Assembly: GCA_965214705.1 (NCBI GenBank)
Contig: CBDCCI010000001.1
Span: forward strand, 480,001-544,000
Length of the DNA stretch: 64,000 nucleotides
Origin: Alphaproteobacteria bacterium
GTDB taxonomy: Bacteria > Pseudomonadota > Alphaproteobacteria > UBA828
Reading direction: 5' to 3'
The position numbers and the translations under genes were made by a program. This document shows, in pieces, positions 8,683-34,772 of this stretch. The notes below the pieces were generated by a model. It was not told where the DNA came from, made no database searches, and was given only the letters and a program-made list of their open reading frames with translations. Each line of letters begins with the position of its first letter. Position 1 is the first letter of the stretch.

Positions 8683-10929
8683 GACGATCTCCTGTTGGTT
8701 CAACCTCCGGGACCCTGTGCCCCGTGGTGATGTCCTTTGTGATTCACGCGCGCGCAGGGGCAGCACCTGGCCCTGGGAAGTCTTGGGCGGGAGTCGGTGC
8801 GGAAGTTCGGCGAGTTGGTGCGGAAGATGGCGCCGCCGTGCCGGTGGGAACGGTGTTCCGCAGCAAATCCATTCCAGTGGTCATTACGGCGCCGTGCCGG
8901 GCGGGCCCGCTTGGGCCTGCCCGGCGTCTAGGCGCCGCCTTGAATGGTTCCGCGAATGGATTTGAGGCGGTGCAGCGTGACGCGTCGGCCCCGCGCGAGG
9001 GGCCGGCGCGCTGCGAGACGCGGCAGTTGGCGATTACGCGCAAGCCATCTTCACGGTCGCCGAACTTCACGGCCCGCCTTAGACTTCCTTGGGTCAGGCC
9101 GCAGGGAGCGGAGCGACCGGAGGACCCGCAGGGTTGCTGTCGCGAGCACGTGTGAAATCCTCGGACATCACGACGGAGTGCGCTGTGAATACCAAGTAGG
9201 AGGAAAGCATGAAGTAAACCAAACACTTGGTAGTGCTGATGATCGACCGGTGGCTGAAACGCCACCCTGCCTGACGAGGGGTGTTGGGCGGAAGGGGATC
9301 GCTAAGCTCCGCCGGTTTCCGACGGTGGGGCGAAAGAGCTGCGATCTGAACTGTACCGGGTGCGGGCCGTCGCTCGCGGGCCGGGCTACCACAGGACCTA
9401 TGGCGAGGTTGAACGAAGCACGTGACGGAAGCCTCTTTATTTAGATGTCCAACCCTCAATGGCCCGACGGGGCGGAGGGAGCGCGGTGAGAGCCGGTTGG
9501 TCTTCCGTCTGCCGACTGGCGGGTGTGTTGAACGCACCCGGGTACGGGTCAACCCTTCTATCCCGAACCCCAGAGCTGCAAGGGGTATAGCGTGCCGCCT
9601 AAGGGTCTCAGGTTTGTCATCGGAACACAGGAACCCATGCTGTTCGCCCGGCACGGAACCGGGCTAGCCGCGGAGAACGGAGACGGGCCGCATGGGGGCG
9701 GAGCCCTCGTAGTAGTCGGAGTGCGGGAAAGCCGCATACATGGCGAAGGGGGGCAGAAGGTGGATCGGCTATCGACTGACGGAGGAACTATCCGTGGACT
9801 CGGATAATCAGGCCGACATGGCCTGGTGGCTCCTCAACGTGCAGCGGAAGTTGTATCGGTGGAGTAAGGAGACGCCTGAAGGCGCTTACGGCGATGTGTG
9901 GAACTGGGAGCCACTTGCAAAACTCCCACCGATCCGCGCAATCTTCGCTGTGCATGGCACTCGATTGCCCAGAACAAGGGCAGACGAACGCCGGGCGTCG
10001 ACGGGCTGACGGTGGCGAGCATTGCCGCTGGCGATGGAGGTGTACCGCTCTTTCTGGACGAGCTTCGGGAGGCGCTGCGCGATGGCAGCTACCGACCGTC
10101 GCCCGCCCGGCGGAAGTGGATTCCGAAGCCGGGCAAGCCGGGGAAGTTCCGACCCCTTGGTATCCCCACCGTTGCTGACCGCGTGGTGCAATGCGCGGTC
10201 AAGAACATCCTGGAGCCAATTTTCGAGGCGCGTTTCTGGCAGGTCTCCTACGGGTTCAGGCCCGGACGGGGCTGCCATGGCGCACTCGAACATATCCGGC
10301 TGACCACTCGGACTCACAAGTCGAGAACCGATGGGAAGCTTCGCGACCCTCCCTATCAATGGGTGATTGAAGGCGACATCGAGGGCTGCTTCGACAACAT
10401 CGGCCATCACTACCTGATGGAGCGCGTACGGAAATCCGTCGCGGACCGGAAGGTCAACAGGCTGATCGTGCGGTTCCTCAAAGCCGGGGTATTGGAGGAC
10501 GTCAACTACAATCCGACAACCACCGGCACGCCTCAAGGGGGTGTCCTGTCTCCCCTGCTGGCCAACATCGCGCTGAGCGCGATCGAGGAGCGGTACTGGT
10601 GGTGGGTGAGGCACCCGCATGATCCCAATATCCGGACTGACGGAAGGCGGATGGCCGCGACACGGCGATTTCGGGACAGGGAGGCCGGGCGAACGGTCTT
10701 GAACGAAGCCGCTACGCGGAGTTAGCGGCGTAGAGTTCATTCATTTCCGAGGCGTCGCGGGTGCCGTTTGTTCTGTGCGTTCGCTTCCCGGTTGCGTCAG
10801 TGGCGCTCCGCCCGTCGGGTGGCGGATCCCCAGCAGCCTCCCGATCACCAGTGGTTAGCATCGACCCCTGCGACGGACCGTCGCCGGATCGGTCCGGCGG
10901 CGCGCCGTCGCGATCCAGGGAGATCGATA

Positions 10930-11808
10930 ATGACCGGGACCGCGTGCGACACGAACACCGTCACCCCTCTTCGCCAGCGCATGGAGGAGCAGCTCCGCAT
11001 CGCCAATCTGGCCGCGAGCACGTCCAAGGCCTACATCTGCGAGATCAAGAACCTGGCCAGGTACTACGACGCCTCGCCGGACGAGCTCGACGCCGAGCAG
11101 GTGCGCCAGTGGTACCTGGGGCGGATCGACAAGGGGCTCAGTCCGGGCACGACCAACGTCTCCTTCGCCGCGCTGAACTTCCTCTACATCGACACACTCG
11201 GCTGGCCTGACCATGTCGCCGGCCTGCGCTCCCGCAAGAAGCCCGGCAAGCTGCCGCGCTACATGTCGGAGCAGGAGGTCGAGCACCTCATCCTTGCGAC
11301 ACCCGACCTCCGCCACCGTGCTGCCATTGTCACCGGCTATGGCGGCGGGCTCCGCATCTCCGAGACCTTGGCCATCAAGGTCGGCGACATCCTGTCGGAG
11401 AAGAAGCTGCTGCACATCCCCTCCGGCAAAGGCGGCACCGAGAGAATGGCACCGTTGCCGGACATCGTCATCCACTACTTGCGCGTCTACTACAGGAACA
11501 TCTGGCCGCGTCCGACGAGCTGGCTCTTCTACGGCGTCTCGCTCGACAGGCCCATCGCAACGGAGACCTTGCAGGCCGCCTTCAGGAGGGCGCGCGACAT
11601 TGCCGAGCTCGACCGCAGCTACACCTTCCATTGCCTGCGCCATTCGGCGGCGACCCATCTCCTCGAGCGCGGCGGCGATATCGAGGTGATCCGGGACATG
11701 CTCGGCCATCGAAGCGCGAACACGACCCGTCACTACGCCCGCGTCACCGGCAAGATGTTCGAGGGCCTCGACCACCCGATCTCAGGCTTCGCAGCGTTGC
11801 GCAACTGA
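10930..11808 (+). CDS. Tyrosine recombinase (XerD/integron-integrase-like) of element A
   Basis: GLRISE, GKGG, HCLRHS.ATH, LGH and TTRHY catalytic motifs. RBS AGGGAG before ATG 10930. Confidence 0.92.
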   Translation: MTGTACDTNTVTPLRQRMEEQLRIANLAASTSKAYICEIKNLARYYDASPDELDAEQVRQWYLGRIDKGLSPGTTNVSFAALNFLYIDTLGWPDHVAGLRSRKKPGKLPRYMSEQEVEHLILATPDLRHRAAIVTGYGGGLRISETLAIKVGDILSEKKLLHIPSGKGGTERMAPLPDIVIHYLRVYYRNIWPRPTSWLFYGVSLDRPIATETLQAAFRRARDIAELDRSYTFHCLRHSAATHLLERGGDIEVIRDMLGHRSANTTRHYARVTGKMFEGLDHPISGFAALRN

Positions 11809-11814
11809 CGGCGC

Positions 11815-13056
11815 GTGGAGGCCGAACGCGCGGGCGTGGCGGAGATCTTCCGCCGCGCCGGCGCCGCTTTCCGTGAGCGCCACAAAGGGCGCATCGACGC
11901 CGCCCGGCTCAAGGTCATGGGCGCCATCGAGGCGTGCCGCACCGCCGTGCTCGGCGGCCACATGTACGCCTGCGAGGGCTGCGGGCGCGAGCATCCGCTC
12001 TTCAACTCCTGCCGCAACCGCCACTGCCCCACCTGCCAGGGTCTCGCCGCCAACCTCTGGAGCGAGGAGCGCGCCGGGGACATCCTGCCGGTGCCCTACT
12101 TCCATGTGGTCTTCACCCTGCCCAAGGAGGTTGCCGCCATTGCCTTCTGCAACCGCAGGGTGGTGTTCGACATCCTCTTCCGGGCCGTCGCCGAGACCCT
12201 GCGCACCATCGCCGCCGATCCCCGCCACGGCGGCATGCGCATCGGCGGCACCGCGGTCCTCCATACCTGGGATCAGAAGCTCCGCTTCCACCCGCACCTG
12301 CACGTGGTCGTGCCCAACGCGGGCTTCGACGTAGACAGTGGCGAGTGGAAGACGGGGAGCACCACCTTCCTCGCCCCCGTCAAGGTCCTCGGCAGCCTGT
12401 TCCGCCGCCTCTTCCTCGAGGAGCTCGCCCGCGCCCACGGCCGGGGGGACCTGGAGTTCCACGGCACCCTCGCCCACCTCGCCAATCCCGGCGAGTTCCA
12501 CGCCACGCTTGCCGCCGCCCGGGCCAGGGACTGGGTGGTCTACGCCAAGCGGCCCTTCCGCGGGCCTGAGCAGGTCTTCCGGTACCTCTCGCACTACACG
12601 CACAGGATCGCCATCTCCGACAGCCGCATCGTCTCCTTCGACGGCGAGACGGTCTCCTTCCGCCACCGAAAGCCCAAGGCGCCGGGGCAGAGAAAGCCGC
12701 GCTACGGCATCGCCACCGTGAGCGCCGACGAGTTCATCCGCCGCTTCCTGAGGCACGTCCTGCCGGACGGCATGCACCGCATTCGCTACTTCGGCATCCT
12801 CGCCAACGGCTGCCGCGCCAGCACGCTGGAGAGAGCACGCCAGGCTCTCGGCGCCCTCGGCTGCGCCGCCCCCGAGGGAAGCGTGGACGGCGCTCGGGCC
12901 GAGCCCGACGAAGAGCCCGAGATCGGCACCGCGCCCGTGGCCTGCCCCCACTGCGGCGGCGTCATGCGCCTCGTCCGCGAAATCCGCCGCCGCCATGAGC
13001 CCCGCTCGACGCGCGGCCCGCCGGCGCTGCCGCCGACCCACAGGGGGAAACCGTGA
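11815..13056 (+). CDS. IS91-family HUH Y2 transposase with Zn-binding domain
   Basis: C..C...CRNRHCPTC, HVVFTLP, HTW, HUH motif HPHLH, Y2 motif YLSHY. Confidence 0.93.
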   Translation: MEAERAGVAEIFRRAGAAFRERHKGRIDAARLKVMGAIEACRTAVLGGHMYACEGCGREHPLFNSCRNRHCPTCQGLAANLWSEERAGDILPVPYFHVVFTLPKEVAAIAFCNRRVVFDILFRAVAETLRTIAADPRHGGMRIGGTAVLHTWDQKLRFHPHLHVVVPNAGFDVDSGEWKTGSTTFLAPVKVLGSLFRRLFLEELARAHGRGDLEFHGTLAHLANPGEFHATLAAARARDWVVYAKRPFRGPEQVFRYLSHYTHRIAISDSRIVSFDGETVSFRHRKPKAPGQRKPRYGIATVSADEFIRRFLRHVLPDGMHRIRYFGILANGCRASTLERARQALGALGCAAPEGSVDGARAEPDEEPEIGTAPVACPHCGGVMRLVREIRRRHEPRSTRGPPALPPTHRGKP

Positions 13057-14215
13057 GACGCCCGCTCGCTTCGGCCCCGCGCAACGGCGCCAAAGCGCCG
13101 ACGCACGACCGAACCTGTCTCCGCTTGAGCCGGGCTGACAGCCCTCGGCTCACACCCCGCTCAGTCCTCGCAGCGTGCGCCCGCATGCCTGCCGAAAGAC
13201 CGGCGCGAGCGTCGATTTTATGCGCAACTCTGCTGCCGGTGGATGCCGCCTGACGCTGACATCAGCGCACTTTCCACATAGCTCAACTTCGCCTCTCGTG
13301 GCCCGCGGCTTCGTTCAAAAGGGTTGGGCAGGCTCTCTCTCGAGAGCCTGCCCAACCCTTAACCTTCTACCCGGTCCGATATGCCGACGACTTCCTGATC
13401 TTCGTGGCGGGCGGTTACGACGATGCGGCTGCTGAGAAGCAGGCGCTCGCGGACTGGCTGCGCGAGGAGATGGGGCTGACGCTATCGGAGGAGAAGACGC
13501 GGATCACCAGACTGACGGAAGGATTCCGGTTCCTCGGATGCCGGGTTCGTCTCAAAGGGGACGACCATGACGGCTACATGTGCCGGGTCGAAATCCCGAA
13601 GGAGGCGATCAGTGACTTCTGCCGGCGGATCAAGCAAGTGCTGAATCAGCGGACGCGGACGCGCTCGCTGAGAAGCGTGCTCCAGGAAATCAATCCAATC
13701 CTCCGGGGGTGGGGCCACTACTACCGCCACTGCATCGGGGCCAAGCGCATCCTGTCCAGTCTGGACTGGTATGTGTGGCGACGGCTCTGGCTGTGGATGC
13801 GGGGTAAGCACGACGGCGCCTCCCCGCGACGGGTGTACGCTTCTTGGTCGAGGCCGAGCCGGCAGTATCCCGGCGCTCGGGTCTGGGCCGATGGCGACAC
13901 TGAGCTGTACCAAATGGGCCGGATTCCGGTCATGCAGTTCAAGCTCAATTGGATGAAAACTCCTGCCTTCACGAAAGCCTTTGGCGAGCCGGGTGCATAA
14001 CGAAAGGTGCACGCCCGGTTCTGAGAGAGGGCGCGAGAAACCTGTGGTGCGTGAGGATCACCAGGCGCTCGCGTCCTACTCTACCGGACCCCTGTTTTTG
14101 TTTCCTGCAAGCTTTCACCGGCGCGGCGCCGGCGCAGCGATGAAAGGCGCGGTGCTGGCCGCGGGCTGGGCAACGGGATCGAGGGCGAGCCGCTCCCGGT
14201 GGCGCTCGTCACCGC

Positions 14216-15330: not shown

Positions 15331-15563
15331 TTTTGAACGAAGCCGCTACGCGGAGTTAGCGGCGTAGAGTTCATTCATTTCCGAGGCGTCGCGGGTGCCG
15401 TTTGTTCTGTGCGTTCGCTTCCCGGTTGCGTCAGTGGCGCTCCGCCCGTCGGGTGGCGGATCCCCAGCAGCCTCCCGATCACCAGTGGTTAGTATCGACC
15501 CCTGCGACGGACCGTCGCCGGATCGGTCCGGCGGCGCGCCGTCGCGATCCAGGGAGATCGATA

Positions 15564-16442
15564 ATGACCGGGACCGCGTGCGACACGAACACCGTCACCC
15601 CTCTTCGCCAGCGCATGGAGGAGCAGCTCCGCATCGCCAATCTGGCCGCGAGCACGTCCAAGGCCTACATCTGCGAGATCAAGAACCTGGCCAGGTACTA
15701 CGACGCCTCGCCGGACGAGCTCGACGCCGAGCAGGTGCGCCAGTGGTACCTGGGGCGGATCGACAAGGGGCTCAGTCCGGGCACGACCAACGTCTCCTTC
15801 GCCGCGCTGAACTTCCTCTACATCGACACACTCGGCTGGCCTGACCATGTCGCCGGCCTGCGCTCCCGCAAGAAGCCCGGCAAGCTGCCGCGCTACATGT
15901 CGGAGCAGGAGGTCGAGCACCTCATCCTTGCGACACCCGACCTCCGCCACCGTGCTGCCATTGTCACCGGCTATGGCGGCGGGCTCCGCATCTCCGAGAC
16001 CTTGGCCATCAAGGTCGGCGACATCCTGTCGGAGAAGAAGCTGCTGCACATCCCCTCCGGCAAAGGCGGCACCGAGAGAATGGCACCGTTGCCGGACATC
16101 GTCATCCACTACTTGCGCGTCTACTACAGGAACATCTGGCCGCGTCCGACGAGCTGGCTCTTCTACGGCGTCTCGCTCGACAGGCCCATCGCAACGGAGA
16201 CCTTGCAGGCCGCCTTCAGGAGGGCGCGCGACATTGCCGAGCTCGACCGCAGCTACACCTTCCATTGCCTGCGCCATTCGGCGGCGACCCATCTCCTCGA
16301 GCGCGGCGGCGATATCGAGGTGATCCGGGACATGCTCGGCCATCGAAGCGCGAACACGACCCGTCACTACGCCCGCGTCACCGGCAAGATGTTCGAGGGC
16401 CTCGACCACCCGATCTCAGGCTTCGCAGCGTTGCGCAACTGA
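15564..16442 (+). CDS. Tyrosine recombinase of element A
   Basis: Identical to 10930-11808. Confidence 0.92.
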   Translation: MTGTACDTNTVTPLRQRMEEQLRIANLAASTSKAYICEIKNLARYYDASPDELDAEQVRQWYLGRIDKGLSPGTTNVSFAALNFLYIDTLGWPDHVAGLRSRKKPGKLPRYMSEQEVEHLILATPDLRHRAAIVTGYGGGLRISETLAIKVGDILSEKKLLHIPSGKGGTERMAPLPDIVIHYLRVYYRNIWPRPTSWLFYGVSLDRPIATETLQAAFRRARDIAELDRSYTFHCLRHSAATHLLERGGDIEVIRDMLGHRSANTTRHYARVTGKMFEGLDHPISGFAALRN

Positions 16443-16448
16443 CGGCGC

Positions 16449-17690
16449 GTGGAGGCCGAACGCGCGGGCGTGGCGGAGATCTTCCGCCGCGCCGGCGCCG
16501 CTTTCCGTGAGCGCCACAAAGGGCGCATCGACGCCGCCCGGCTCAAGGTCATGGGCGCCATCGAGGCGTGCCGCACCGCCGTGCTCGGCGGCCACATGTA
16601 CGCCTGCGAGGGCTGCGGGCGCGAGCATCCGCTCTTCAACTCCTGCCGCAACCGCCACTGCCCCACCTGCCAGGGTCTCGCCGCCAACCTCTGGAGCGAG
16701 GAGCGCGCCGGGGACATCCTGCCGGTGCCCTACTTCCATGTGGTCTTCACCCTGCCCAAGGAGGTTGCCGCCATTGCCTTCTGCAACCGCAGGGTGGTGT
16801 TCGACATCCTCTTCCGGGCCGTCGCCGAGACCCTGCGCACCATCGCCGCCGATCCCCGCCACGGCGGCATGCGCATCGGCGGCACCGCGGTCCTCCATAC
16901 CTGGGATCAGAAGCTCCGCTTCCACCCGCACCTGCACGTGGTCGTGCCCAACGCGGGCTTCGACGTAGACAGTGGCGAGTGGAAGACGGGGAGCACCACC
17001 TTCCTCGCCCCCGTCAAGGTCCTCGGCAGCCTGTTCCGCCGCCTCTTCCTCGAGGAGCTCGCCCGCGCCCACGGCCGGGGGGACCTGGAGTTCCACGGCA
17101 CCCTCGCCCACCTCGCCAATCCCGGCGAGTTCCACGCCACGCTTGCCGCCGCCCGGGCCAGGGACTGGGTGGTCTACGCCAAGCGGCCCTTCCGCGGGCC
17201 TGAGCAGGTCTTCCGGTACCTCTCGCACTACACGCACAGGATCGCCATCTCCGACAGCCGCATCGTCTCCTTCGACGGCGAGACGGTCTCCTTCCGCCAC
17301 CGAAAGCCCAAGGCGCCGGGGCAGAGAAAGCCGCGCTACGGCATCGCCACCGTGAGCGCCGACGAGTTCATCCGCCGCTTCCTGAGGCACGTCCTGCCGG
17401 ACGGCATGCACCGCATTCGCTACTTCGGCATCCTCGCCAACGGCTGCCGCGCCAGCACGCTGGAGAGAGCACGCCAGGCTCTCGGCGCCCTCGGCTGCGC
17501 CGCCCCCGAGGGAAGCGTGGACGGCGCTCGGGCCGAGCCCGACGAAGAGCCCGAGATCGGCACCGCGCCCGTGGCCTGCCCCCACTGCGGCGGCGTCATG
17601 CGCCTCGTCCGCGAAATCCGCCGCCGCCATGAGCCCCGCTCGACGCGCGGCCCGCCGGCGCTGCCGCCGACCCACAGGGGGAAACCGTGA
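16449..17690 (+). CDS. IS91-family Y2 transposase
   Basis: Identical to 11815-13056. Confidence 0.93.
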   Translation: MEAERAGVAEIFRRAGAAFRERHKGRIDAARLKVMGAIEACRTAVLGGHMYACEGCGREHPLFNSCRNRHCPTCQGLAANLWSEERAGDILPVPYFHVVFTLPKEVAAIAFCNRRVVFDILFRAVAETLRTIAADPRHGGMRIGGTAVLHTWDQKLRFHPHLHVVVPNAGFDVDSGEWKTGSTTFLAPVKVLGSLFRRLFLEELARAHGRGDLEFHGTLAHLANPGEFHATLAAARARDWVVYAKRPFRGPEQVFRYLSHYTHRIAISDSRIVSFDGETVSFRHRKPKAPGQRKPRYGIATVSADEFIRRFLRHVLPDGMHRIRYFGILANGCRASTLERARQALGALGCAAPEGSVDGARAEPDEEPEIGTAPVACPHCGGVMRLVREIRRRHEPRSTRGPPALPPTHRGKP

Positions 17691-18327
17691 GACGCCCGCT
17701 CGCTTCGGCCCCGCGCAACGGCGCCAAAGCGCCGACGCACGACCGAACCTGTCTCCGCTTGAGCCGGGCTGACAGCCCTCGGCTCACACCCCGCTCAGTC
17801 CTCGCAGCGTGCGCCCGCATGCCTGCCGAAAGACCGGCGCGAGCGTCGATTTTATGCGCAACTCTGCTGCCGGTGGATGCCGCCTGACGCTGACATCAGC
17901 GCACTTTCCACATAGCTCAACTTCGCCTCTCGTGGCCCGCGGCTTCGTTCAAAAGGGTTGGGCAGGCTCTCTCTCGAGAGCCTGCCCAACCCTTAACCAT
18001 GTTCAACTGCACATAATGAATTGGCCTGTATCGGTCGTGCGCAGCAGGACCGATACAGGCATTGAGCTGAGCCGCGCTGCACGGCCGTAGTGCCGGGCTA
18101 TGGGGAAAGTAACCGCTGGGTGGGAGCCGATTAGGCCGAAGCGGTGCAACCTGTTGGTGTCGCTGGCGGCGCCGGCACTCTGAATCTCCACTTATCAGGT
18201 TGCGACGCGGCTGTGCAGGGGCTCGCGACGATGTTTCGCCGCCGGGCAGCACGAAGCGGGCGCAGGAGCGGTCGCGGCGCGGCGGCCGGGGGGACTGTTG
18301 TCGGACCTTGTCGGTTCTGACGCATCG

Positions 18328-23070: not shown

Positions 23071-23714
23071 ACCTGCGAGAAGCGATCGAACGCTACGTGC
23101 TCTGGCGACAGGCTCACGGCGCGAAGTTCACGAGCGGCGCGAGCTTGTTGCGCGGCTTCCTTCACCATGCCGATGGCGAAGCCGCCTGCGACGCGATCAA
23201 CGCCGGGCAGGTACGGGCGTATCTCGCGGGCGAAGGCGTGTCGAGGCGCCACTGCGAGAACAGATACTATGCGCTTGCCGGCTTCTGGCGCCATGCGATC
23301 AGCCGCGGCCATGCGTCCCGCTCACCGATGCCGGCCGACGCACCGAGATCGCCCGTCCGAGCGCCGCCCTACATCTACTCGCGCGACGAACTTGCGCGCC
23401 TGTTCGACCCCGCGACCGTGGAAGCGAGCCGGCGCCGCGCAGTCCAGCTGGACGCGGTGACGTTCCGGACGCTGCTTCTGCTCTTGAACGAAGCCGCTAC
23501 GCGGAGTTAGCGGCGTAGAGTTCATTCATTTCCGAGGCGTCGCGGGTGCCGTTTGTTCTGTGCGTTCGCTTCCCGGTTGCGTCAGTGGCGCTCCGCCCGT
23601 CGGGTGGCGGATCCCCAGCAGCCTCCCGATCACCAGTGGTTAGCATCGACCCCTGCGACGGACCGTCGCCGGATCGGTCCGGCGGCGCGCCGTCGCGATC
23701 CAGGGAGATCGATA

Positions 23715-24593
23715 ATGACCGGGACCGCGTGCGACACGAACACCGTCACCCCTCTTCGCCAGCGCATGGAGGAGCAGCTCCGCATCGCCAATCTGGCCGC
23801 GAGCACGTCCAAGGCCTACATCTGCGAGATCAAGAACCTGGCCAGGTACTACGACGCCTCGCCGGACGAGCTCGACGCCGAGCAGGTGCGCCAGTGGTAC
23901 CTGGGGCGGATCGACAAGGGGCTCAGTCCGGGCACGACCAACGTCTCCTTCGCCGCGCTGAACTTCCTCTACATCGACACACTCGGCTGGCCTGACCATG
24001 TCGCCGGCCTGCGCTCCCGCAAGAAGCCCGGCAAGCTGCCGCGCTACATGTCGGAGCAGGAGGTCGAGCACCTCATCCTTGCGACACCCGACCTCCGCCA
24101 CCGTGCTGCCATTGTCACCGGCTATGGCGGCGGGCTCCGCATCTCCGAGACCTTGGCCATCAAGGTCGGCGACATCCTGTCGGAGAAGAAGCTGCTGCAC
24201 ATCCCCTCCGGCAAAGGCGGCACCGAGAGAATGGCACCGTTGCCGGACATCGTCATCCACTACTTGCGCGTCTACTACAGGAACATCTGGCCGCGTCCGA
24301 CGAGCTGGCTCTTCTACGGCGTCTCGCTCGACAGGCCCATCGCAACGGAGACCTTGCAGGCCGCCTTCAGGAGGGCGCGCGACATTGCCGAGCTCGACCG
24401 CAGCTACACCTTCCATTGCCTGCGCCATTCGGCGGCGACCCATCTCCTCGAGCGCGGCGGCGATATCGAGGTGATCCGGGACATGCTCGGCCATCGAAGC
24501 GCGAACACGACCCGTCACTACGCCCGCGTCACCGGCAAGATGTTCGAGGGCCTCGACCACCCGATCTCAGGCTTCGCAGCGTTGCGCAACTGA
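23715..24593 (+). CDS. Tyrosine recombinase of element A
   Basis: Identical to copy 1. Confidence 0.92.
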   Translation: MTGTACDTNTVTPLRQRMEEQLRIANLAASTSKAYICEIKNLARYYDASPDELDAEQVRQWYLGRIDKGLSPGTTNVSFAALNFLYIDTLGWPDHVAGLRSRKKPGKLPRYMSEQEVEHLILATPDLRHRAAIVTGYGGGLRISETLAIKVGDILSEKKLLHIPSGKGGTERMAPLPDIVIHYLRVYYRNIWPRPTSWLFYGVSLDRPIATETLQAAFRRARDIAELDRSYTFHCLRHSAATHLLERGGDIEVIRDMLGHRSANTTRHYARVTGKMFEGLDHPISGFAALRN

Positions 24594-24599
24594 CGGCGC

Positions 24600-25841
24600 G
24601 TGGAGGCCGAACGCGCGGGCGTGGCGGAGATCTTCCGCCGCGCCGGCGCCGCTTTCCGTGAGCGCCACAAAGGGCGCATCGACGCCGCCCGGCTCAAGGT
24701 CATGGGCGCCATCGAGGCGTGCCGCACCGCCGTGCTCGGCGGCCACATGTACGCCTGCGAGGGCTGCGGGCGCGAGCATCCGCTCTTCAACTCCTGCCGC
24801 AACCGCCACTGCCCCACCTGCCAGGGTCTCGCCGCCAACCTCTGGAGCGAGGAGCGCGCCGGGGACATCCTGCCGGTGCCCTACTTCCATGTGGTCTTCA
24901 CCCTGCCCAAGGAGGTTGCCGCCATTGCCTTCTGCAACCGCAGGGTGGTGTTCGACATCCTCTTCCGGGCCGTCGCCGAGACCCTGCGCACCATCGCCGC
25001 CGATCCCCGCCACGGCGGCATGCGCATCGGCGGCACCGCGGTCCTCCATACCTGGGATCAGAAGCTCCGCTTCCACCCGCACCTGCACGTGGTCGTGCCC
25101 AACGCGGGCTTCGACGTAGACAGTGGCGAGTGGAAGACGGGGAGCACCACCTTCCTCGCCCCCGTCAAGGTCCTCGGCAGCCTGTTCCGCCGCCTCTTCC
25201 TCGAGGAGCTCGCCCGCGCCCACGGCCGGGGGGACCTGGAGTTCCACGGCACCCTCGCCCACCTCGCCAATCCCGGCGAGTTCCACGCCACGCTTGCCGC
25301 CGCCCGGGCCAGGGACTGGGTGGTCTACGCCAAGCGGCCCTTCCGCGGGCCTGAGCAGGTCTTCCGGTACCTCTCGCACTACACGCACAGGATCGCCATC
25401 TCCGACAGCCGCATCGTCTCCTTCGACGGCGAGACGGTCTCCTTCCGCCACCGAAAGCCCAAGGCGCCGGGGCAGAGAAAGCCGCGCTACGGCATCGCCA
25501 CCGTGAGCGCCGACGAGTTCATCCGCCGCTTCCTGAGGCACGTCCTGCCGGACGGCATGCACCGCATTCGCTACTTCGGCATCCTCGCCAACGGCTGCCG
25601 CGCCAGCACGCTGGAGAGAGCACGCCAGGCTCTCGGCGCCCTCGGCTGCGCCGCCCCCGAGGGAAGCGTGGACGGCGCTCGGGCCGAGCCCGACGAAGAG
25701 CCCGAGATCGGCACCGCGCCCGTGGCCTGCCCCCACTGCGGCGGCGTCATGCGCCTCGTCCGCGAAATCCGCCGCCGCCATGAGCCCCGCTCGACGCGCG
25801 GCCCGCCGGCGCTGCCGCCGACCCACAGGGGGAAACCGTGA
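24600..25841 (+). CDS. IS91-family Y2 transposase
   Basis: Identical to copy 1. Confidence 0.93.
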   Translation: MEAERAGVAEIFRRAGAAFRERHKGRIDAARLKVMGAIEACRTAVLGGHMYACEGCGREHPLFNSCRNRHCPTCQGLAANLWSEERAGDILPVPYFHVVFTLPKEVAAIAFCNRRVVFDILFRAVAETLRTIAADPRHGGMRIGGTAVLHTWDQKLRFHPHLHVVVPNAGFDVDSGEWKTGSTTFLAPVKVLGSLFRRLFLEELARAHGRGDLEFHGTLAHLANPGEFHATLAAARARDWVVYAKRPFRGPEQVFRYLSHYTHRIAISDSRIVSFDGETVSFRHRKPKAPGQRKPRYGIATVSADEFIRRFLRHVLPDGMHRIRYFGILANGCRASTLERARQALGALGCAAPEGSVDGARAEPDEEPEIGTAPVACPHCGGVMRLVREIRRRHEPRSTRGPPALPPTHRGKP

Positions 25842-26675
25842 GACGCCCGCTCGCTTCGGCCCCGCGCAACGGCGCCAAAGCGCCGACGCACGACCGAACC
25901 TGTCTCCGCTTGAGCCGGGCTGACAGCCCTCGGCTCACACCCCGCTCAGTCCTCGCAGCGTGCGCCCGCATGCCTGCCGAAAGACCGGCGCGAGCGTCGA
26001 TTTTATGCGCAACTCTGCTGCCGGTGGATGCCGCCTGACGCTGACATCAGCGCACTTTCCACATAGCTCAACTTCGCCTCTCGTGGCCCGCGGCTTCGTT
26101 CAAAAGGGTTGGGCAGGCTCTCGAGAGAGAGCCTGCCCAACCCTTAACCTTGTACGGCGCGGGCCTACGATTCGGGGAGGCGACTCGCCTCTCCCTTGCC
26201 GACGTCGATCTGGCGAACGCCGTCCTGACCATCCGGGCCACCAAGTTCTACAAGAGCCGGCTGGTCCCGGTCGGCCCTCAGCTTGCAGCGCTTCTGGGAA
26301 GCCACGTGACCCTGCGCCAGCGCGCCGGACTGGTGGAAGGCCGGGACGCGTTGCTCCTGGCGAACCGGGACGGGACGCGGCTCGCCAGTAGCACGGTGCT
26401 GGCCGCGTTCGACACGCTGAGGCGCCTCGCCGGGGTCCACCGTCCCGCGGCGGGGCGGACGATCCCGCGGCTGCACGATCTGCGGCACAGCTTCGCCGTC
26501 CACCGCCTGACGAGCTGGTATCGGCAAGGCGCTGATGTGCAACGGCTGCTGCCGGTGCTCTCCACCTATCTCGGTCACGCCGATCTGGAGGGCACGAAGA
26601 TCTATCTGTCGATGACGCCGGAGCTCCTGGAAGAGGCGTCGCTACGGTTCGCCCGCTATGCGGCGGGAGGTCGGC

Positions 26676-28742: not shown

Positions 28743-29096
28743 GCGACCCTCCCCGCGGGACTGAGGTTATGTTGCCGAGAAACCGCAAGGTTAAGGGTTG
28801 GGCAGGCTCTCTCTCGAGAGCCTGCCCAACCCTTTTGAACGAAGCCGCGGGCCACGAGAGGCGAAGTTGAGCTATGTGGAAAGTGCGCTGATGTCAGCGT
28901 CAGGCGGCATCCACCGGCAGCAGAGTTGCGCATAAAATCGACGCTCGCGCCGGTCTTTCGGCAGGCATGCGGGCGCACGCTGCGAGGACTGAGCGGGGTG
29001 TGAGCCGAGGGCTGTCAGCCCGGCTCAAGCGGAGACAGGTTCGGTCGTGCGTCGGCGCTTTGGCGCCGTTGCGCGGGGCCGAAGCGAGCGGGCGTC

Positions 29097-30338
29097 TCAC
29101 GGTTTCCCCCTGTGGGTCGGCGGCAGCGCCGGCGGGCCGCGCGTCGAGCGGGGCTCATGGCGGCGGCGGATTTCGCGGACGAGGCGCATGACGCCGCCGC
29201 AGTGGGGGCAGGCCACGGGCGCGGTGCCGATCTCGGGCTCTTCGTCGGGCTCGGCCTGAGCGCCGTCCACGCTTCCCTCGGGGGCGGCGCAGCCGAGGGC
29301 GCCGAGAGCCTGGCGTGCTCTCTCCAGCGTGCTGGCGCGGCAGCCGTTGGCGAGGATGCCGAAGTAGCGAATGCGGTGCATGCCGTCCGGCAGGACGTGC
29401 CTCAGGAAGCGGCGGATGAACTCGTCGGCGCTCACGGTGGCGATGCCGTAGCGCGGCTTTCTCTGCCCCGGCGCCTTGGGCTTTCGGTGGCGGAAGGAGA
29501 CCGTCTCGCCGTCGAAGGAGACGATGCGGCTGTCGGAGATGGCGATCCTGTGCGTGTAGTGCGACAGGTACCGGAAGACCTGCTCAGGCCCGCGGAAGGG
29601 CCGCTTGGCGTAGACCACCCAGTCCCTGGCCCGGGCGGCGGCAAGCGTGGCGTGGAACTCGCCGGGATTGGCGAGGTGGGCGAGGGTGCCGTGGAACTCC
29701 AGGTCCCCCCGGCCGTGGGCGCGGGCGAGCTCCTCGAGGAAGAGGCGGCGGAACAGGCTGCCGAGGACCTTGACGGGGGCGAGGAAGGTGGTGCTCCCCG
29801 TCTTCCACTCGCCACTGTCTACGTCGAAGCCCGCGTTGGGCACGACCACGTGCAGGTGCGGGTGGAAGCGGAGCTTCTGATCCCAGGTATGGAGGACCGC
29901 GGTGCCGCCGATGCGCATGCCGCCGTGGCGGGGATCGGCGGCGATGGTGCGCAGGGTCTCGGCGACGGCCCGGAAGAGGATGTCGAACACCACCCTGCGG
30001 TTGCAGAAGGCAATGGCGGCAACCTCCTTGGGCAGGGTGAAGACCACATGGAAGTAGGGCACCGGCAGGATGTCCCCGGCGCGCTCCTCGCTCCAGAGGT
30101 TGGCGGCGAGACCCTGGCAGGTGGGGCAGTGGCGGTTGCGGCAGGAGTTGAAGAGCGGATGCTCGCGCCCGCAGCCCTCGCAGGCGTACATGTGGCCGCC
30201 GAGCACGGCGGTGCGGCACGCCTCGATGGCGCCCATGACCTTGAGCCGGGCGGCGTCGATGCGCCCTTTGTGGCGCTCACGGAAAGCGGCGCCGGCGCGG
30301 CGGAAGATCTCCGCCACGCCCGCGCGTTCGGCCTCCAC
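29097..30338 (-). CDS. IS91-family Y2 transposase (copy 4)
   Basis: One amino-acid difference from copy 1. Confidence 0.93.
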   Translation of the reverse strand: MEAERAGVAEIFRRAGAAFRERHKGRIDAARLKVMGAIEACRTAVLGGHMYACEGCGREHPLFNSCRNRHCPTCQGLAANLWSEERAGDILPVPYFHVVFTLPKEVAAIAFCNRRVVFDILFRAVAETLRTIAADPRHGGMRIGGTAVLHTWDQKLRFHPHLHVVVPNAGFDVDSGEWKTGSTTFLAPVKVLGSLFRRLFLEELARAHGRGDLEFHGTLAHLANPGEFHATLAAARARDWVVYAKRPFRGPEQVFRYLSHYTHRIAISDSRIVSFDGETVSFRHRKPKAPGQRKPRYGIATVSADEFIRRFLRHVLPDGMHRIRYFGILANGCRASTLERARQALGALGCAAPEGSVDGAQAEPDEEPEIGTAPVACPHCGGVMRLVREIRRRHEPRSTRGPPALPPTHRGKP

Positions 30339-31125
30339 GCGCCGTCAGTTGCGCAACGCTGCGAAGCCTGAGATCGGGTGGTCGAGGCCCTCGAACATCT
30401 TGCCGGTGACGCGGGCGTAGTGACGGGTCGTGTTCGCGCTTCGATGGCCGAGCATGTCCCGGATCACCTCGATATCGCCGCCGCGCTCGAGGAGATGGGT
30501 CGCCGCCGAATGGCGCAGGCAATGGAAGGTGTAGCTGCGGTCGAGCTCGGCAATGTCGCGCGCCCTCCTGAAGGCGGCCTGCAAGGTCTCCGTTGCGATG
30601 GGCCTGTCGAGCGAGACGCCGTAGAAGAGCCAGTTCGTCGGACGCGGCCAGATGTTCCTGTAGTAGACGCGCAAGTAGTGGATGACGATGTCCGGCAACG
30701 GTGCCATTCTCTCGGTGCCGCCTTTGCCGGAGGGGATGTGCAGCAGCTTCTTCTCCGACAGGATGTCGCCGACCTTGATGGCCAAGGTCTCGGAGATGCG
30801 GAGCCCGCCGCCATAGCCGGTGACAATGGCAGCACGGTGGCGGAGGTCGGGTGTCGCAAGGATGAGGTGCTCGACCTCCTGCTCCGACATGTAGCGCGGC
30901 AGCTTGCCGGGCTTCTTGCGGGAGCGCAGGCCGGCGACATGGTCAGGCCAGCCGAGTGTGTCGATGTAGAGGAAGTTCAGCGCGGCGAAGGAGACGTTGG
31001 TCGTGCCCGGACTGAGCCCCTTGTCGATCCGCCCCAGGTACCACTGGCGCACCTGCTCGGCGTCGAGCTCGTCCGGCGAGGCGTCGTAGTACCTGGCCAG
31101 GTTCTTGATCTCGCAGATGGTTAAG

Positions 31126-33217
31126 CCGAACTTCCAGTGTGGGATAGTCAAAGAACCGTTGTGCGGCAGGGGTTTCGGCGAGTTTCGAAGCGACGATTAC
31201 TGGACAGGTTTGGCGGTGGTCATCCCCTTTTCGGTGAGCGCGGGCGCAGGATGGGGCCGCAGCCCGAGCAATGCGAACGCCCTTTCCTGCAGTTCGGTCG
31301 GCTTGGTCAGGGCGGGCACGGCGAAGTCGGTTCCGGTGGCGATCTCAGTGGCAGCAAGCGTGCCGAGATGGCCGAGGAGATCGCGGAAGTCGCACACCGC
31401 AAGTCCATCATCCGTCTTTCGGCGCTTGTCCTTGCGCCGGGCCTTTTCCGAGCGTTCCGGCGGCGCCACCGGGTTCGCGGACAGCGGCGCTCCGTCCTCC
31501 TCGGCGAACAGCAGCGGCGCCAGCCTGCGGCGCATGTGCCACTCGACATACCAAGCCAGCATGCAGATCAGAAGATGCGCCCGTACTCGGTCGTCGCGCC
31601 AGTGGAAGATCGGGCGGATCCGCAACGACACCGTCTTGAGCGAGCGGAAGGCGCGCTCGACGCGTGACAGGCTCTTGTAGACGCGGACCGCCTCGACGTC
31701 CTCGATCTCGTCCTCGTCCACGTTGGTGCGTATGACGTAGAGACCGTCGAGGGCGGCCTCGGCGTCGATCGACGCCCGGTCGCGTTCGCAACTGAAGGTG
31801 CCGCTGCCCTCGTCGAATTCGAAGCGGAAGTGCTTGGCCATCTTGCGGCGGCGCAAGGTTCCCAGCCGACGGTTCAACTCGTCGCGGTCGATGTCGCCGG
31901 CGGCGTGGCGCGCGGCGAAATCGCGCGCGTCCGTCTCGGTCGCATTGAGCAGCCCGTCGCGGTTGCGCTTGCGCTCGGCCGCCAGAACCGGGTTGTAGCA
32001 GACGATCAGCCTCTCGCCGGGATAGTCCGGCGTGGTCACCCGCGCGAGGCCCCAGGTGTCGAACAGGCCGGGCGTGACATGCCCCCGGTCGACGAGCTTG
32101 CGGATCGAGGATGCGCGCAGCGCCGTGATCCAGTCGATGCCGTTGGGCGCGAGGTCGCGGTCGATGCGGGTCTGCGCGATCATGCCGCGGTCCCCCACCA
32201 ACACCACCCGCCGGATGCCGAAGCTGTCGCGGACCTTGCGCACCTGGCTGGCCAGAGTCATCGGGTCGCCGGTGTTGCCGGCGAAGGCCTCGATCGAGAC
32301 CGGACAGCCATCGCGGGTGCAGAGGAGGCCGTAGACGATCTGCGGGCGGTCGCCCCGGCGATCCCTCGAATAGCCGCGCTTCGCCATGGGGCAGGCGTTG
32401 CCCTCCATGTAGCTCGAGGACACGTCGTAGAGGACGAGATCGTCCTCTCCGAGATGGCGCCGGGCGAGCTTGCGCTCGATCGCGCCCTGTCGCGCGCCCA
32501 GCCAGTCCATGGCGGCGTAGAGTTCGTCGACGCTGACGCCTTCGACGCCGAGCAGGGCGGCGAGGGTGGTTGTGCCGGCCGCTCCCAGTTCGCGCTCGAC
32601 GCGCAGCTTGGCGCCGGGCCGGATCAGGCGGGCGACGATCATGGCGATGACGAGGGCCCTGCGGCGATCGGGCCGGTGGAAGATGACGCGGTCGAGGCCG
32701 ATGTCGCGAAGGGTGCCGAGAACGGCGCTGACGGCGCCGTGCGCCCGGCTGGCGCGCAGTTCGACGTCGGCGCTGTCGGGATTGAGGGCGGGTCCGCGCT
32801 TGAGGGCGCGTTTGAGGGCTTCGATGGCGTGTTCCGGGAGGGCGGAGAGGTTGCACAGGGTGCGCTTCTTGGGTTTTCCGTCCTGCCAGTAGGACTGTCT
32901 GAGGAGGTGGCAGCGGGAGTTTCCGGACCGGGTGGTTTCGATGTGCATATCGATCTGCCTAGCGAATCGCGGCAATCATATCGGAAAGGCTTGGGAATGC
33001 GGAGCAATTATCGTAACGAGAAAACTATCTACTGACTAGTATTCAGGTTTTGGTGGATGCGCCGGGACGGCGTGATCCAGCGCTGGAGCGCCGAATCGCG
33101 GCGGTTTCGGCGATCATTTCGGGAATTTCGCGCCAAACCGGGCGCTAAACTGCGCAGAAAGGGCGGAAACAGGCAAAATCCGGCCAGATCGGCAATCAGA
33201 TGCTAACGGAAGTTCGG
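31126..33217 (-). mobile_element. IS1634-family IS, 2,092 bp
   Basis: IRs CCGAACTTCC/GGAAGTTCGG. 6-bp TSD GTTAAG (31120-31125, 33218-33223). Confidence 0.9.
31197..32948 (-). CDS. IS1634-family DDE transposase
   Basis: LYDVSSSY, GYSRD, FAGNTGD, VGDRGM, DGLYVIRTN and YKSL..VERAFR..K motifs. Confidence 0.9.
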   Translation of the reverse strand: MHIETTRSGNSRCHLLRQSYWQDGKPKKRTLCNLSALPEHAIEALKRALKRGPALNPDSADVELRASRAHGAVSAVLGTLRDIGLDRVIFHRPDRRRALVIAMIVARLIRPGAKLRVERELGAAGTTTLAALLGVEGVSVDELYAAMDWLGARQGAIERKLARRHLGEDDLVLYDVSSSYMEGNACPMAKRGYSRDRRGDRPQIVYGLLCTRDGCPVSIEAFAGNTGDPMTLASQVRKVRDSFGIRRVVLVGDRGMIAQTRIDRDLAPNGIDWITALRASSIRKLVDRGHVTPGLFDTWGLARVTTPDYPGERLIVCYNPVLAAERKRNRDGLLNATETDARDFAARHAAGDIDRDELNRRLGTLRRRKMAKHFRFEFDEGSGTFSCERDRASIDAEAALDGLYVIRTNVDEDEIEDVEAVRVYKSLSRVERAFRSLKTVSLRIRPIFHWRDDRVRAHLLICMLAWYVEWHMRRRLAPLLFAEEDGAPLSANPVAPPERSEKARRKDKRRKTDDGLAVCDFRDLLGHLGTLAATEIATGTDFAVPALTKPTELQERAFALLGLRPHPAPALTEKGMTTAKPVQ

Positions 33218-33524
33218 GTTAAGGGTTGGGCAGGCTCTCTCTCGAGAGCCTGCCCAACCCTTTTGAACGAAGCCGCGGGCCACGAGAGGCGAAGTTGAGC
33301 TATGTGGAAAGTGCGCTGATGTCAGCGTCAGGCGGCATCCACCGGCAGCAGAGTTGCGCATAAAATCGACGCTCGCGCCGGTCTTTCGGCAGGCATGCGG
33401 GCGCACGCTGCGAGGACTGAGCGGGGTGTGAGCCGAGGGCTGTCAGCCCGGCTCAAGCGGAGACAGGTTCGGTCGTGCGTCGGCGCTTTGGCGCCGTTGC
33501 GCGGGGCCGAAGCGAGCGGGCGTC

Positions 33525-34766: not shown

Positions 34767-34772
34767 GCGCCG

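What the first reader, a model, noticed from the sequence alone, without database searches (positions are those of the whole stretch)
13319..13360. Flip/flop terminal hairpin in the integrase-IS91 element A
Seen: every copy ends in a perfect 19-bp stem (AAGGGTTGGGCAGGCTCTC/GAGAGCCTGCCCAACCCTT) located 4 nt from the terminus. On the element strand the 4-nt loop reads TCTC in copies 1 and 2 (13338-41, 17972-75). It reads as the exact reverse complement GAGA in copies 3-6 (26123-26, 28812-15, 33240-43, 44738-41). Loop state is unlinked to the upstream C/T SNP (all four combinations occur), which suggests repeated inversion. Established: flip/flop termini are the signature of HUH-driven rolling-hairpin terminal resolution in parvoviruses/AAV, and hairpin-telomere resolvases are tyrosine-recombinase relatives. 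Inference: this bacterial HUH + tyrosine-recombinase transposon may go through a hairpin-ended or strand-switching intermediate, or the recombinase may invert or resolve the palindrome. That would give the co-encoded recombinase a role.
Basis: partly seen in the sequence, partly recalled or inferred. Interest (0 to 1): 0.9.

Follow-up and report, generated by a model that had tools for sequence, protein, structure and literature searches.

The report
Flipped loop in IS91 end hairpin
The hairpin at one end of a very abundant jumping gene exists in two mirror-image loop versions, but the rare version looks like an occasional DNA-copying slip in a perfect palindrome rather than a virus-like flip/flop replication mechanism.

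Summary
All six window copies of a 2,666-bp IS91-family element (tyrosine recombinase plus Y2 HUH transposase) end in a perfect 19-bp stem, a 4-nt loop and AACC. The element-strand loop is TCTC in copies 1-2 and GAGA in copies 3-6. Genome-wide I found 94 such hairpins: 84 GAGA, 9 TCTC, 1 not orientable.

The parvovirus-like reading is not supported:
- The ratio is far from 1:1 (binomial p about 2e-16).
- All four combinations with a SNP also occur for 18 of 28 ordinary SNP pairs, so this is not evidence of repeated inversion.
- 23 related hairpins with imperfect stems all keep one orientation.

The hairpin is the ordinary subterminal oriIS palindrome. It abuts a CTTG-like target, shows no target duplication and covaries across relatives.

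One tandem junction carries a 4-nt GGTT insertion templated by AACC across the palindrome axis. That is a footprint of polymerase template switching, a process known to invert hairpin loops.

Best reading: one or a few rare template-switch loop inversions, then inherited by transposition. Read data could not confirm per-locus states.

The parts
10699..13364 (+). Element A copy 1 (2,666 bp), loop state TCTC
   Evidence: Repeat map and ends. It is inserted in a group II intron.
10699..10712 (+). Left (terIS-like) end, TTGAACGAAGCCGC. It is a 14-bp inverted repeat of the sequence just inside the hairpin. A weak 7-bp-stem palindrome follows.
10768..11808 (+). Tyrosine recombinase ORF, 346 aa
   Evidence: Pfam PF00589 (E 6.7e-33) and PF13495. 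Best NCBIfam matches are XerA, XerC and integron integrase, all below their cut-offs. Best solved structures are Xer and IntI4.
11815..13056 (+). IS91-family Y2 HUH transposase ORF, 413 aa
   Evidence: Pfam Y2_Tnp (E 2.7e-54) and Zn_Tnp_IS91. NCBIfam NF033538 scores 382.5 bits against a cut-off of 125.
13305..13318 (+). Inner repeat GCGGCTTCGTTCAA next to the hairpin
   Evidence: It is conserved in relatives.
13319..13360 (+). oriIS subterminal hairpin of copy 1: 19-bp perfect stem, loop TCTC at 13338-13341
   Evidence: Folds at -28 kcal/mol, z -6 to -8, on either strand.
13361..13364 (+). Terminal AACC. The flank begins TTC here; genome-wide it begins TTG in 41 of 90.
15333..17998 (+). Element A copy 2. 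Hairpin 17953-17994, loop TCTC at 17972-17975.
23484..26149 (+). Element A copy 3. Hairpin 26104-26145, loop GAGA at 26123-26126.
28789..31119 (-). Element A copy 4, lacking the first 335 nt. Hairpin 28793-28834. The + strand reads TCTC, so the element strand is GAGA.
33217..35882 (-). Element A copy 5. Hairpin 33221-33262, element-strand loop GAGA.
37689..38994 (+). Element A copy 6, 5' part (element positions 1-1306). It is separated from its 3' part by a 4.4-kb insert.
43404..44764 (+). Element A copy 6, 3' part. Hairpin 44719-44760, loop GAGA at 44738-44741.

Best explanation
The 42-nt palindrome is the subterminal oriIS hairpin of an IS91-family insertion sequence. The element carries a Y2 HUH transposase and an upstream Xer/IntI-like tyrosine recombinase, and has expanded to about 94 copies in this genome.

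The loop occurs in two reverse-complementary states because the sequence between two perfect 19-bp inverted arms was turned round on one or a few rare occasions by polymerase template switching. In that process the nascent strand leaves its template inside one arm, copies the loop from the complementary strand, and returns inside the other arm.

Each state is then passed on when the copy transposes. The loop orientation does not seem to matter for transposition.

Relatives of the element all have the pyrimidine loop (TCNN or TAAC) on the top strand. TCTC is therefore probably the older state, and GAGA is the state of the copy that gave rise to the burst.

Shown: the dimorphism, its skew, the family context, and a template-switch footprint at this palindrome.
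Inferred: that template switching made the flips, how many flips there were, and whether they happened during ordinary replication or during the repair synthesis that follows the transposase nick.
For: 1. Identity of the element and its end.
- Pfam and NCBIfam name an IS91 transposase above cut-off.
- 60 of 66 full copies have no flank duplication of 2 nt or more.
- The flank after AACC is TTG in 41 of 90 and TTN in 68 of 90, so C|TTG resembles the IS91 target 5'-CTTG next to oriIS (PMC13181058 passages).
- Across 12 family members, 6 of 19 stem pairs change on both sides, and 0 of 500 shuffles reach the covariation score.

2. Flipping is rare and largely heritable.
- The tally is 84 GAGA to 9 TCTC.
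- Among young full-length copies it is 7 of 62, binomial p 2e-10 against 0.5.
- The 7 young TCTC copies sit at 7 different loci on only 4 haplotypes, with a weak association with 161T (p 0.039, uncorrected).

3. Template switching acts at this palindrome.
- At G000 C2:646584 a tandem A-A junction reads inner repeat + GGTT + hairpin(TCTC) + AACC + left end of the next copy.
- The unmodified junction type is inner repeat + hairpin(GAGA) + AACC + left end, seen at the A-B junction C1:1988909.
- The extra GGTT is the reverse complement of AACC across the axis. Starting from a GAGA parent, one interstrand switch gives both the GGTT and the flipped loop.

4. Arm perfection.
- Element A has 19 of 19 perfect pairs.
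- Relatives keep a mismatch at pair 26-39 in 7 of the 10 sequences with letters there, and none of 23 related hairpins is flipped.

5. Published precedent.
- Template switching inverts loops of perfectly paired hairpins. 69 cases were reported, mostly with 4-nt loops (PMC8794818, passages).
- It causes 'homogenization of IR arms and IR spacer inversion' (PMC8604942, abstract start in the listing).
Against: - No read-level confirmation exists that the TCTC loci are real. Logan contigs collapse the repeat.
- The GGTT junction can also arise by fold-back from a parent that was already TCTC. It proves template switching at this site, not that switching made the flips.
- The absence of flips in relatives (0 of 23 against 9 of 93) is not significant (p 0.20). 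Some of the 23 are the same locus sampled twice.
- TCTC occurs on 4 haplotypes. The tree needs at least 2 flips, or recombination between copies. The number and timing of events is therefore open.
- A second repeated palindrome in the genome (14-bp stems, 6-nt loop) shows 0 of 19 flips. This neither supports nor contradicts the reading (p 0.35).
- Why GAGA dominates 9:1 is unexplained. A founder effect is assumed.
Confidence: 0.6

Rival explanations
1. Transposition-coupled flipping. The transposase nicks the bottom strand 4 nt from the hairpin. Repair synthesis from that nick then copies the hairpin while the displaced old strand lies single-stranded beside it, which invites a switch onto the displaced strand. 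Alternatively the transposase or the IntI-like recombinase acts on the folded hairpin. In either case flips would be a by-product of the mobility chemistry, a loose bacterial analogue of flip/flop.
For: - The predicted nick site (CAA^GGTT on the bottom strand) lies 4 nt from the stem.
- IS91 uses a bottom-strand single-stranded intermediate (PMC13181058 passages).
- Recombinases found in IS91 elements fall in the integron-like subgroup, whose type member acts on folded single strands (bioRxiv 10.1101/542381, one passage).
- Flipped loops are over-represented where the hairpin is followed by a TTGAAC left-end-like flank. This is 3 of 6 against 5 of 86 (p 0.008), or 2 of 5 (p 0.046) without the solo hairpin. 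The test is post hoc with tiny numbers.
Against: - No relative shows a flip (0 of 23), although they share the same enzymes and end architecture.
- The ratio is 84:9.
- Nothing in the sequence separates this from replication-fork switching.
- No evidence bears on the recombinase at all.
Confidence: 0.17
2. Parvovirus-like rolling-hairpin or hairpin-ended intermediate. Every round of mobilisation resolves a terminal hairpin and inverts it, as in AAV.
For: The two states are exact reverse complements, and an HUH nuclease is encoded.
Against: - The tally is 84:9 instead of about 1:1 (p about 2e-16).
- The state tends to go with the haplotype.
- The palindrome is at one end only.
- The other end is a distinct ter-like end.
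- Integrated copies show IS91-type target choice without duplication.
- The recombinase has no telomere-resolvase signature.
Confidence: 0.03
3. Assembly or polishing artefact at a palindrome. The minority TCTC calls are errors.
For: - Locus-specific states could not be read from the available contigs.
- The high-depth collapsed contigs carry GAGA (X1 record 7 and X2 record 31 with 4 other letters; X15 loose end).
Against: - On the + strand the loop follows element orientation in 84 of 90 copies, so there is no strand-specific calling bias.
- TCTC is also the state of two diverged copies with their own stem substitutions, one of them compensated on both arms.
- TCTC is the family-typical state in other genomes and metagenomes.
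- The control palindrome is uniform, 19 of 19.
- The GGTT junction is a 4-nt gain, not a miscall.
Confidence: 0.07
4. Two-step dinucleotide slippage. The centre reads (CT)n C (GA)m G, so loss of two CT units and gain of two GA units would mimic an inversion.
For: The centre is a CT/GA dinucleotide run: (CT)4C(GA)2G against (CT)2C(GA)4G.
Against: Two compensating slips of exactly two units would be needed each time.
Confidence: 0.04

Closest known systems
IS91 family insertion sequences (IS91, IS801, IS1294): oriIS end with subterminal palindrome next to a CTTG/GTTC target
   Same: - Y2 HUH transposase with a zinc-binding N-terminus.
- Two different ends.
- A palindrome just inside the end downstream of the transposase gene.
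- No target duplication.
- A CTTG-like flank.
The published description was read as passages in PMC13181058.
   Different: - The palindrome here is perfect and long (19 bp). The paper describes the IS91, IS801 and IS1294 palindromes as imperfect.
- A tyrosine recombinase gene lies upstream of the transposase gene.
- The loop is dimorphic among copies.
IS91-family members that carry a tyrosine recombinase (integron-like subgroup of simple tyrosine recombinases)
   Same: The gene order is recombinase then Y2 transposase. The recombinase is most like Xer and IntI. That such recombinases occur in IS91 elements and group with IntI is stated in bioRxiv 10.1101/542381 (one passage). I recall ISfinder examples such as ISAzo26, which no call here checked.
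   Different: No function is known for the recombinase, here or in that paper's passage. I did not place this protein in their tree.
Template-switch mutations in hairpins and quasi-palindromes (loop or spacer inversion, arm homogenisation)
   Same: - The change is the exact reverse complement of the loop, with length kept, inside perfect arms.
- A templated 4-nt gain extends the palindrome at one junction.
- Arms are perfect where relatives have a mismatch.
Sources: PMC8794818 (passages) and PMC8604942 (abstract start). The E. coli quasi-palindrome assays of Ripley and Lovett are recalled, not read here.
   Different: The site here is the functional end of a multicopy transposon. A flip is therefore copied to new loci, and both states can be counted within one genome.
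Parvovirus/AAV terminal hairpins with flip and flop
   Same: An HUH nuclease is encoded, a hairpin lies next to its nick site, and there are two reverse-complementary states. The AAV biology is recalled, not read here.
   Different: - The element is integrated, not a linear genome.
- It has a hairpin at one end only.
- Only the 4-nt loop differs between states.
- The states stand at 84:9, not about 1:1.
Small inversions in chloroplast and other hairpin loops
   Same: These are short inversions bounded by inverted repeats that recur in phylogenies. I saw titles and abstract starts only, in the listing. Kelchner and Wendel is recalled.
   Different: They occur in an organelle or nuclear non-coding context, not at a transposon end.

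Membership tests
IS91 family (rolling-circle, Y2 HUH) insertion sequence | Y2 HUH transposase with an IS91-type zinc-binding domain | tested here: met
   PF04986 at E 2.7e-54 and PF14319 at E 4.3e-30. NF033538 scores 382.5 bits against a cut-off of 125.
IS91 family (rolling-circle, Y2 HUH) insertion sequence | No target-site duplication | tested here: met
   60 of 66 full-length copies have no flank repeat of 2 nt or more. The other 6 have 2-3 nt, as chance allows. One empty-site contig in run X15 joins the two flanks of copy 1 directly.
IS91 family (rolling-circle, Y2 HUH) insertion sequence | Specific tetranucleotide (CTTG/GTTC type) adjacent to the oriIS end | tested here: met
   The end AACC is followed by TTG in 41 of 90, TTT in 15 and TTC in 11, so C|TTG reads CTTG in 46%. 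The comparison with IS91 rests on PMC13181058 passages.
IS91 family (rolling-circle, Y2 HUH) insertion sequence | Functionally distinct ends with subterminal palindromes (oriIS downstream of tnpA, terIS upstream) | tested here: met
   The downstream end has a strong hairpin (-28 kcal/mol, z -6 to -8; covariation). The upstream end has only a weak 7-bp palindrome (z -0.8 to -1.8). The function of the ends was not tested.
IS91 family (rolling-circle, Y2 HUH) insertion sequence | Transposition through a bottom-strand single-stranded circle | not testable with these tools
   There is only an indirect hint. In several relatives and in one old copy, the conserved stem mismatch is C.A on the top strand but G.T on the bottom strand.
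Parvovirus-type rolling-hairpin flip/flop | Flip and flop present in about equal amounts | tested here: not met
   84 GAGA to 9 TCTC, binomial p about 2e-16.
Parvovirus-type rolling-hairpin flip/flop | Linear molecule with hairpins at the termini that prime replication | tested here: not met
   All copies are integrated. The palindrome is at one end only, and the other end is different. Free intermediates cannot be examined here.
Hairpin-telomere resolvase (protelomerase) system | Recombinase of the telomere-resolvase type | tested here: not met
   Only Phage_integrase and its SAM-like N-domain are found at E 0.001 or better in Pfam. The nearest NCBIfam and PDB matches are Xer and IntI.
Template-switch (quasi-palindrome) mutation | The new sequence is the reverse complement of the stretch between inverted arms, with length unchanged | tested here: met
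   GAGA against TCTC between identical 19-bp arms in all 92 exact-stem copies. No other loop was found.
Template-switch (quasi-palindrome) mutation | Templated changes that extend or perfect the palindrome | tested here: met
   A GGTT gain mirrors AACC at C2:646584 and at the solo hairpin C1:3505992. Pair 26-39 is perfect in element A but mismatched in 7 of 10 family sequences.
Template-switch (quasi-palindrome) mutation | Dependence on replication and host factors (exonucleases, polymerase), independence from the element's enzymes | not testable with these tools
   This needs genetics. See the next steps.

The most novel reading that the evidence does not exclude
The flips are made by the element's own mobility chemistry. 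One route is a switch of the repair polymerase onto the strand that the HUH transposase has just displaced at the nick, 4 nt from the hairpin. The other is action of the IntI-like recombinase on the folded single-stranded hairpin. The oriIS hairpin would then be a bacterial counterpart of viral flip/flop termini, and the co-encoded recombinase would gain a role.
Probability: 0.12. Interest if true: 0.7.

Novelty: new member of a known kind. Interest (0 to 1): 0.3.

Why it matters
- It removes a tempting but unsupported link between a bacterial HUH transposon and parvovirus-style rolling-hairpin replication.
- About 94 copies act as a natural experiment. They suggest that the orientation of the 4-nt loop in an IS91-family oriIS hairpin is not critical for transposition, because the burst was made by the state that differs from all relatives.
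- A multicopy transposon end turns out to be a convenient in-genome reporter of template-switch mutation. It shows loop inversion, palindrome extension and arm perfection.
- The role of the recombinase in IS91-type elements stays open. The single-state donor assay proposed below would address it directly.

Tried and rejected
Searches outside this genome
- Exact-stem hairpin in the GTDB species genomes: 0 hits.
- Exact-stem hairpin in JGI metagenomes: 0 hits. This exact hairpin was found only in the window's genome.
Only 6 sites in 5 loci had a hairpin after the motif; the rest look like chance matches.

Reads
- Only Logan contigs were available. They collapse the element and show the majority GAGA form, so locus-specific states were not resolved.
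- A contig in X1 that seemed to show an empty site for copy 2 with an inverted 12-mer most likely comes from a paralogous site at C1:1986289. I dropped it.

Ideas tested and dropped
- I proposed that the solo hairpin upstream of an element B copy marks a switch of B to a new origin. That B copy keeps its own right end and hairpin, so I rejected the idea.
- I first took C1:1439372 for a normal A-A tandem. Its flank only shares TTGAACGA. This is corrected in note 3.
- Loop state against replication direction (GC skew): TCTC 4:2, GAGA 32:52, no signal.
- Adjacent TCTC copies 1 and 2: by a rough hand estimate (no call) about 0.5 adjacent TCTC pairs are expected by chance, so this is not evidence of local hopping.
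- Control palindrome, 0 of 19 flipped, against 9 of 93: p 0.35.

Literature
- No paper in the held library describes loop inversion at an IS91/ISCR end. Subscription journals are not covered, and supplements were closed and not consulted.

Tools
- The first tree script timed out in MAFFT. I re-ran it with faster settings.
Full report
WHAT IS THERE

The six palindromes named in the finding are in the window exactly as described. Each has a 19-nt stem, 4 free bases and the complementary 19 nt. They start at 13319, 17953, 26104, 28793, 33221 and 44719, and the pattern matched none of 100 shuffles.

They lie at the right end of a 2,666-bp repeat. Read left to right, the repeat consists of:
- a left end TTGAACGAAGCCGC;
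- a 346-aa tyrosine recombinase (Pfam Phage_integrase plus the SAM-like N-domain);
- a 413-aa IS91-family Y2 transposase (Y2_Tnp plus Zn_Tnp_IS91; NCBIfam NF033538 at 382.5 bits against a cut-off of 125);
- the inverted copy of the left end (GCGGCTTCGTTCAA);
- the hairpin;
- AACC.

Copies 1, 2, 3 and 6 are on the + strand and copies 4 and 5 on the - strand. On the element strand the loop is therefore TCTC in copies 1-2 and GAGA in copies 3-6.

THE WHOLE GENOME

The window is C2:480001-544000 of a 7.92-Mb, three-contig genome.
- The genome holds 92 palindromes with exactly these stems, and every one has a 4-nt loop that is either GAGA or TCTC.
- My flank rule orients 90 of them: 84 GAGA and 6 TCTC.
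- Two more hairpins have substituted stems, and both are TCTC. One changed on both arms and stays perfect. The other has one mismatch, which is G.T on the bottom strand.
- One of the two unoriented hairpins sits between a full copy and the next copy. It is TCTC with respect to the copy it ends.
- The other is a solo hairpin and stays ambiguous.
- The final tally is 84 GAGA, 9 TCTC and 1 ambiguous.

BLAST found 66 uninterrupted full-length copies. It also found split copies; the same insert, marked by its own palindrome, occurs 19 times in the genome.

WHAT KIND OF END THIS IS

- 60 of 66 full copies show no flank duplication.
- A contig from run X15 joins the two flanks of copy 1 directly.
- After AACC the flank is TTG in 41 of 90 and TTN in 68 of 90, so the junction reads C|TTG.
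- PMC13181058 (passages read) describes IS91-family elements as having two different ends, no target duplication, a 5'-CTTG or 5'-GTTC tetranucleotide next to oriIS, and subterminal palindromes at both ends. For IS91 it shows a bottom-strand single-stranded circle as the functional intermediate.
- Element A fits this description.
- The hairpin folds strongly on either strand and in either state (-28 to -30 kcal/mol, z -6 to -8).
- Across 12 family members, 6 of 19 pairs change on both sides, and 0 of 500 shuffles reach the covariation score.

The hairpin is therefore the ordinary oriIS palindrome of an IS91-family element, under selection to pair.

RELATIVES

Elements about 80% identical occur in the same genome and in five genomes of the same genus. 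They also occur in one other MAG and on eight metagenome contigs.
- Their hairpins have imperfect stems, so their orientation can be read independently of the loop.
- All 23 instances have the same orientation. Some are the same locus sampled twice.
- All have a T-initial, mostly pyrimidine loop on the top strand: TCTC, TCCC, TCAT, TCGC, TAAC or TCAC.
- The majority GAGA of element A is thus the unusual state, and TCTC is the family-typical one.
- Relatives keep a mismatch at pair 26-39 (7 of the 10 sequences with letters there). Element A is perfect at that pair.

IS THE LOOP FLIPPING REPEATEDLY?

- Those combinations do occur.
- Among 55 near-identical copies of exactly 2,666 nt, however, 18 of 28 pairs of ordinary SNPs also show all four combinations. 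The loop does so with only 2 of 8 SNPs. Copies evidently exchange sequence, and the argument has no force.
- The 7 TCTC copies among 62 young full-length copies lie at 7 different loci on 4 haplotypes, with a weak excess of 161T (p 0.039, uncorrected).
- On a tree rooted with the 80% relatives, a young clade (55 GAGA, 7 TCTC) is sister to an old clade in which one TCTC copy branches before three GAGA copies. Without recombination this needs at least two flips.
- I conclude that there were one to a few flips, not a flip at every transposition.

AGAINST THE PARVOVIRUS-LIKE READING

- 84:9 is far from 1:1 (p about 2e-16).
- The palindrome is at one end only.
- The other end is a different, weakly structured ter-like end.
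- Relatives with the same enzymes never show the flipped form.
- The recombinase is Xer/IntI-like, with no telomere-resolvase match.
- A preprint places IS91-borne recombinases in the integron-like subgroup (10.1101/542381, one passage). This makes a role at folded single strands conceivable, but nothing here tests it.

FOR TEMPLATE SWITCHING

At C2:646584 two copies of A stand head to tail. The junction reads inner repeat, GGTT, hairpin with TCTC, AACC, then the left end of the next copy. The unmodified junction type lacks GGTT and has GAGA, as seen where A abuts the left end of a related element B at C1:1988909.

In such a junction the inner repeat of one copy and the left end of the next are 14-bp inverted repeats around the hairpin. 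Suppose a nascent strand leaves its template in the inner repeat, pairs with the left end on the complementary strand, copies back through AACC and the hairpin, and returns within the stem. It would then produce exactly the observed sequence, with the GGTT gain and the flipped loop in one event. Fold-back from a parent that was already TCTC would give the GGTT alone. Either way the GGTT is templated across the palindrome axis, which is the hallmark of this mutational process.

The literature supports this. PMC8794818 (passages) reports 69 loop inversions at perfectly paired hairpins, mostly with 4-nt loops, and attributes them to interstrand switching. PMC8604942 (abstract start) states that switching between short inverted repeats homogenises arms and inverts spacers. 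The perfect 19-bp arms of A, against the mismatched arms of all relatives, fit the same process.

Dinucleotide slippage is unlikely, because no intermediate loop was found in 94 hairpins.

ARTEFACT?

I could not read the per-locus state from reads. The runs found are kept as Logan contigs, which collapse the element and carry GAGA. Several points argue against an artefact:
- The + strand reading follows element orientation in 84 of 90 copies.
- TCTC occurs in diverged copies with their own stem changes.
- TCTC is the norm in other assemblies.
- Another repeated palindrome is uniform, 19 of 19.

I leave 7% for this rival.

VERDICT

The hairpin is a known feature, the oriIS palindrome of an IS91-family element with an accessory tyrosine recombinase. 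The dimorphism is best explained by rare template-switch inversion of the loop in an unusually perfect palindrome, followed by inheritance through transposition (confidence 0.6).

A link to the element's own chemistry is not excluded (about 0.12-0.17). The routes would be a switch onto the strand displaced at the transposase nick, or action of the recombinase. A single-state donor assay would test it.

Interest is modest. The finding corrects an attractive over-reading. It suggests that loop orientation is neutral for this family's origin, and it offers a natural reporter of template switching.

Noticed in passing
G000 C2:646570-646650 (outside the window): This is the only head-to-tail A-A junction in the genome. 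The hairpin is flanked by GGTT and AACC and then by the 14-bp inverted repeats of the two copies, giving a near-perfect palindrome of about 78 bp with loop TCTC.
   Followed up: yes
G000 C1:3505988-3506037 (outside the window): A solo 50-bp unit (GGTT, hairpin, AACC) has no element A body. It lies between unrelated DNA ending in CTCAA and the left end of a related IS91-like element B, which keeps its own right end. Its origin is unexplained. I considered read-through transposition, deletion plus a templated gain, and a mobile hairpin-only unit, and settled none of them.
   Followed up: partly
window 38995-43403; also e.g. G000 C1:39433-41081: Many copies of A are split at the same element position (1306, inside the transposase gene), typically by a ~1.65-kb insert (4.4 kb in the window copy). 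The insert's own 14-bp-stem palindrome (6-nt loop) occurs 19 times in the genome, always in the same orientation. Either the composite is mobilised in trans or the insert targets this site. The insert was not characterised.
   Followed up: partly
window 13365-14084: Copy 1 of A sits inside a group II intron. Rfam RF00029 matches at 13984-14084, and an ORF at 13404-14000 encodes a YADD-type reverse-transcriptase motif as read by eye. A contig of run X15 shows this site without the insertion.
   Followed up: partly
whole genome, 55 full-length copies of A: Haplotypes are reticulate: 18 of 28 pairs of common SNPs show all four combinations. This points to frequent recombination or gene conversion among IS copies, or to chimeric copies formed during transposition.
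   Followed up: partly
G000 contig C1: Relative to GC skew, the top strand of A lies on the inferred lagging strand in 31 copies and on the leading strand in 13. There is no such bias on C3 (12 against 16). Origin and terminus were inferred from skew only.
   Followed up: no
alignment A1, pair of columns 26 and 39: Relatives keep a mismatch five pairs from the loop, in 7 of 10 sequences. In several of them, and in one old copy of A, it is C.A on the top strand but G.T on the bottom strand. This fits folding of the bottom strand, and the mismatch may be a recognition feature that element A has lost.
   Followed up: partly
G000, e.g. C1:1526488-1529101; window 18011-18060 (end of a B-like copy on the - strand): Element B is a 2,614-bp IS91-like element found at about 10 sites. 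It has its own oriIS hairpin (13-bp stems, 11-nt loop, same orientation in 9 of 9 orientable copies). Element A is inserted immediately upstream of B's left end at two loci, once with GAGA and once with TCTC.
   Followed up: partly
window 35883-36218 and 28789-31119: An extra copy of the first 336 nt of A lies next to copy 5, and copy 4 lacks exactly the first 335 nt. Together these suggest a rearrangement or an internal ter-like stop at about element position 336.
   Followed up: no
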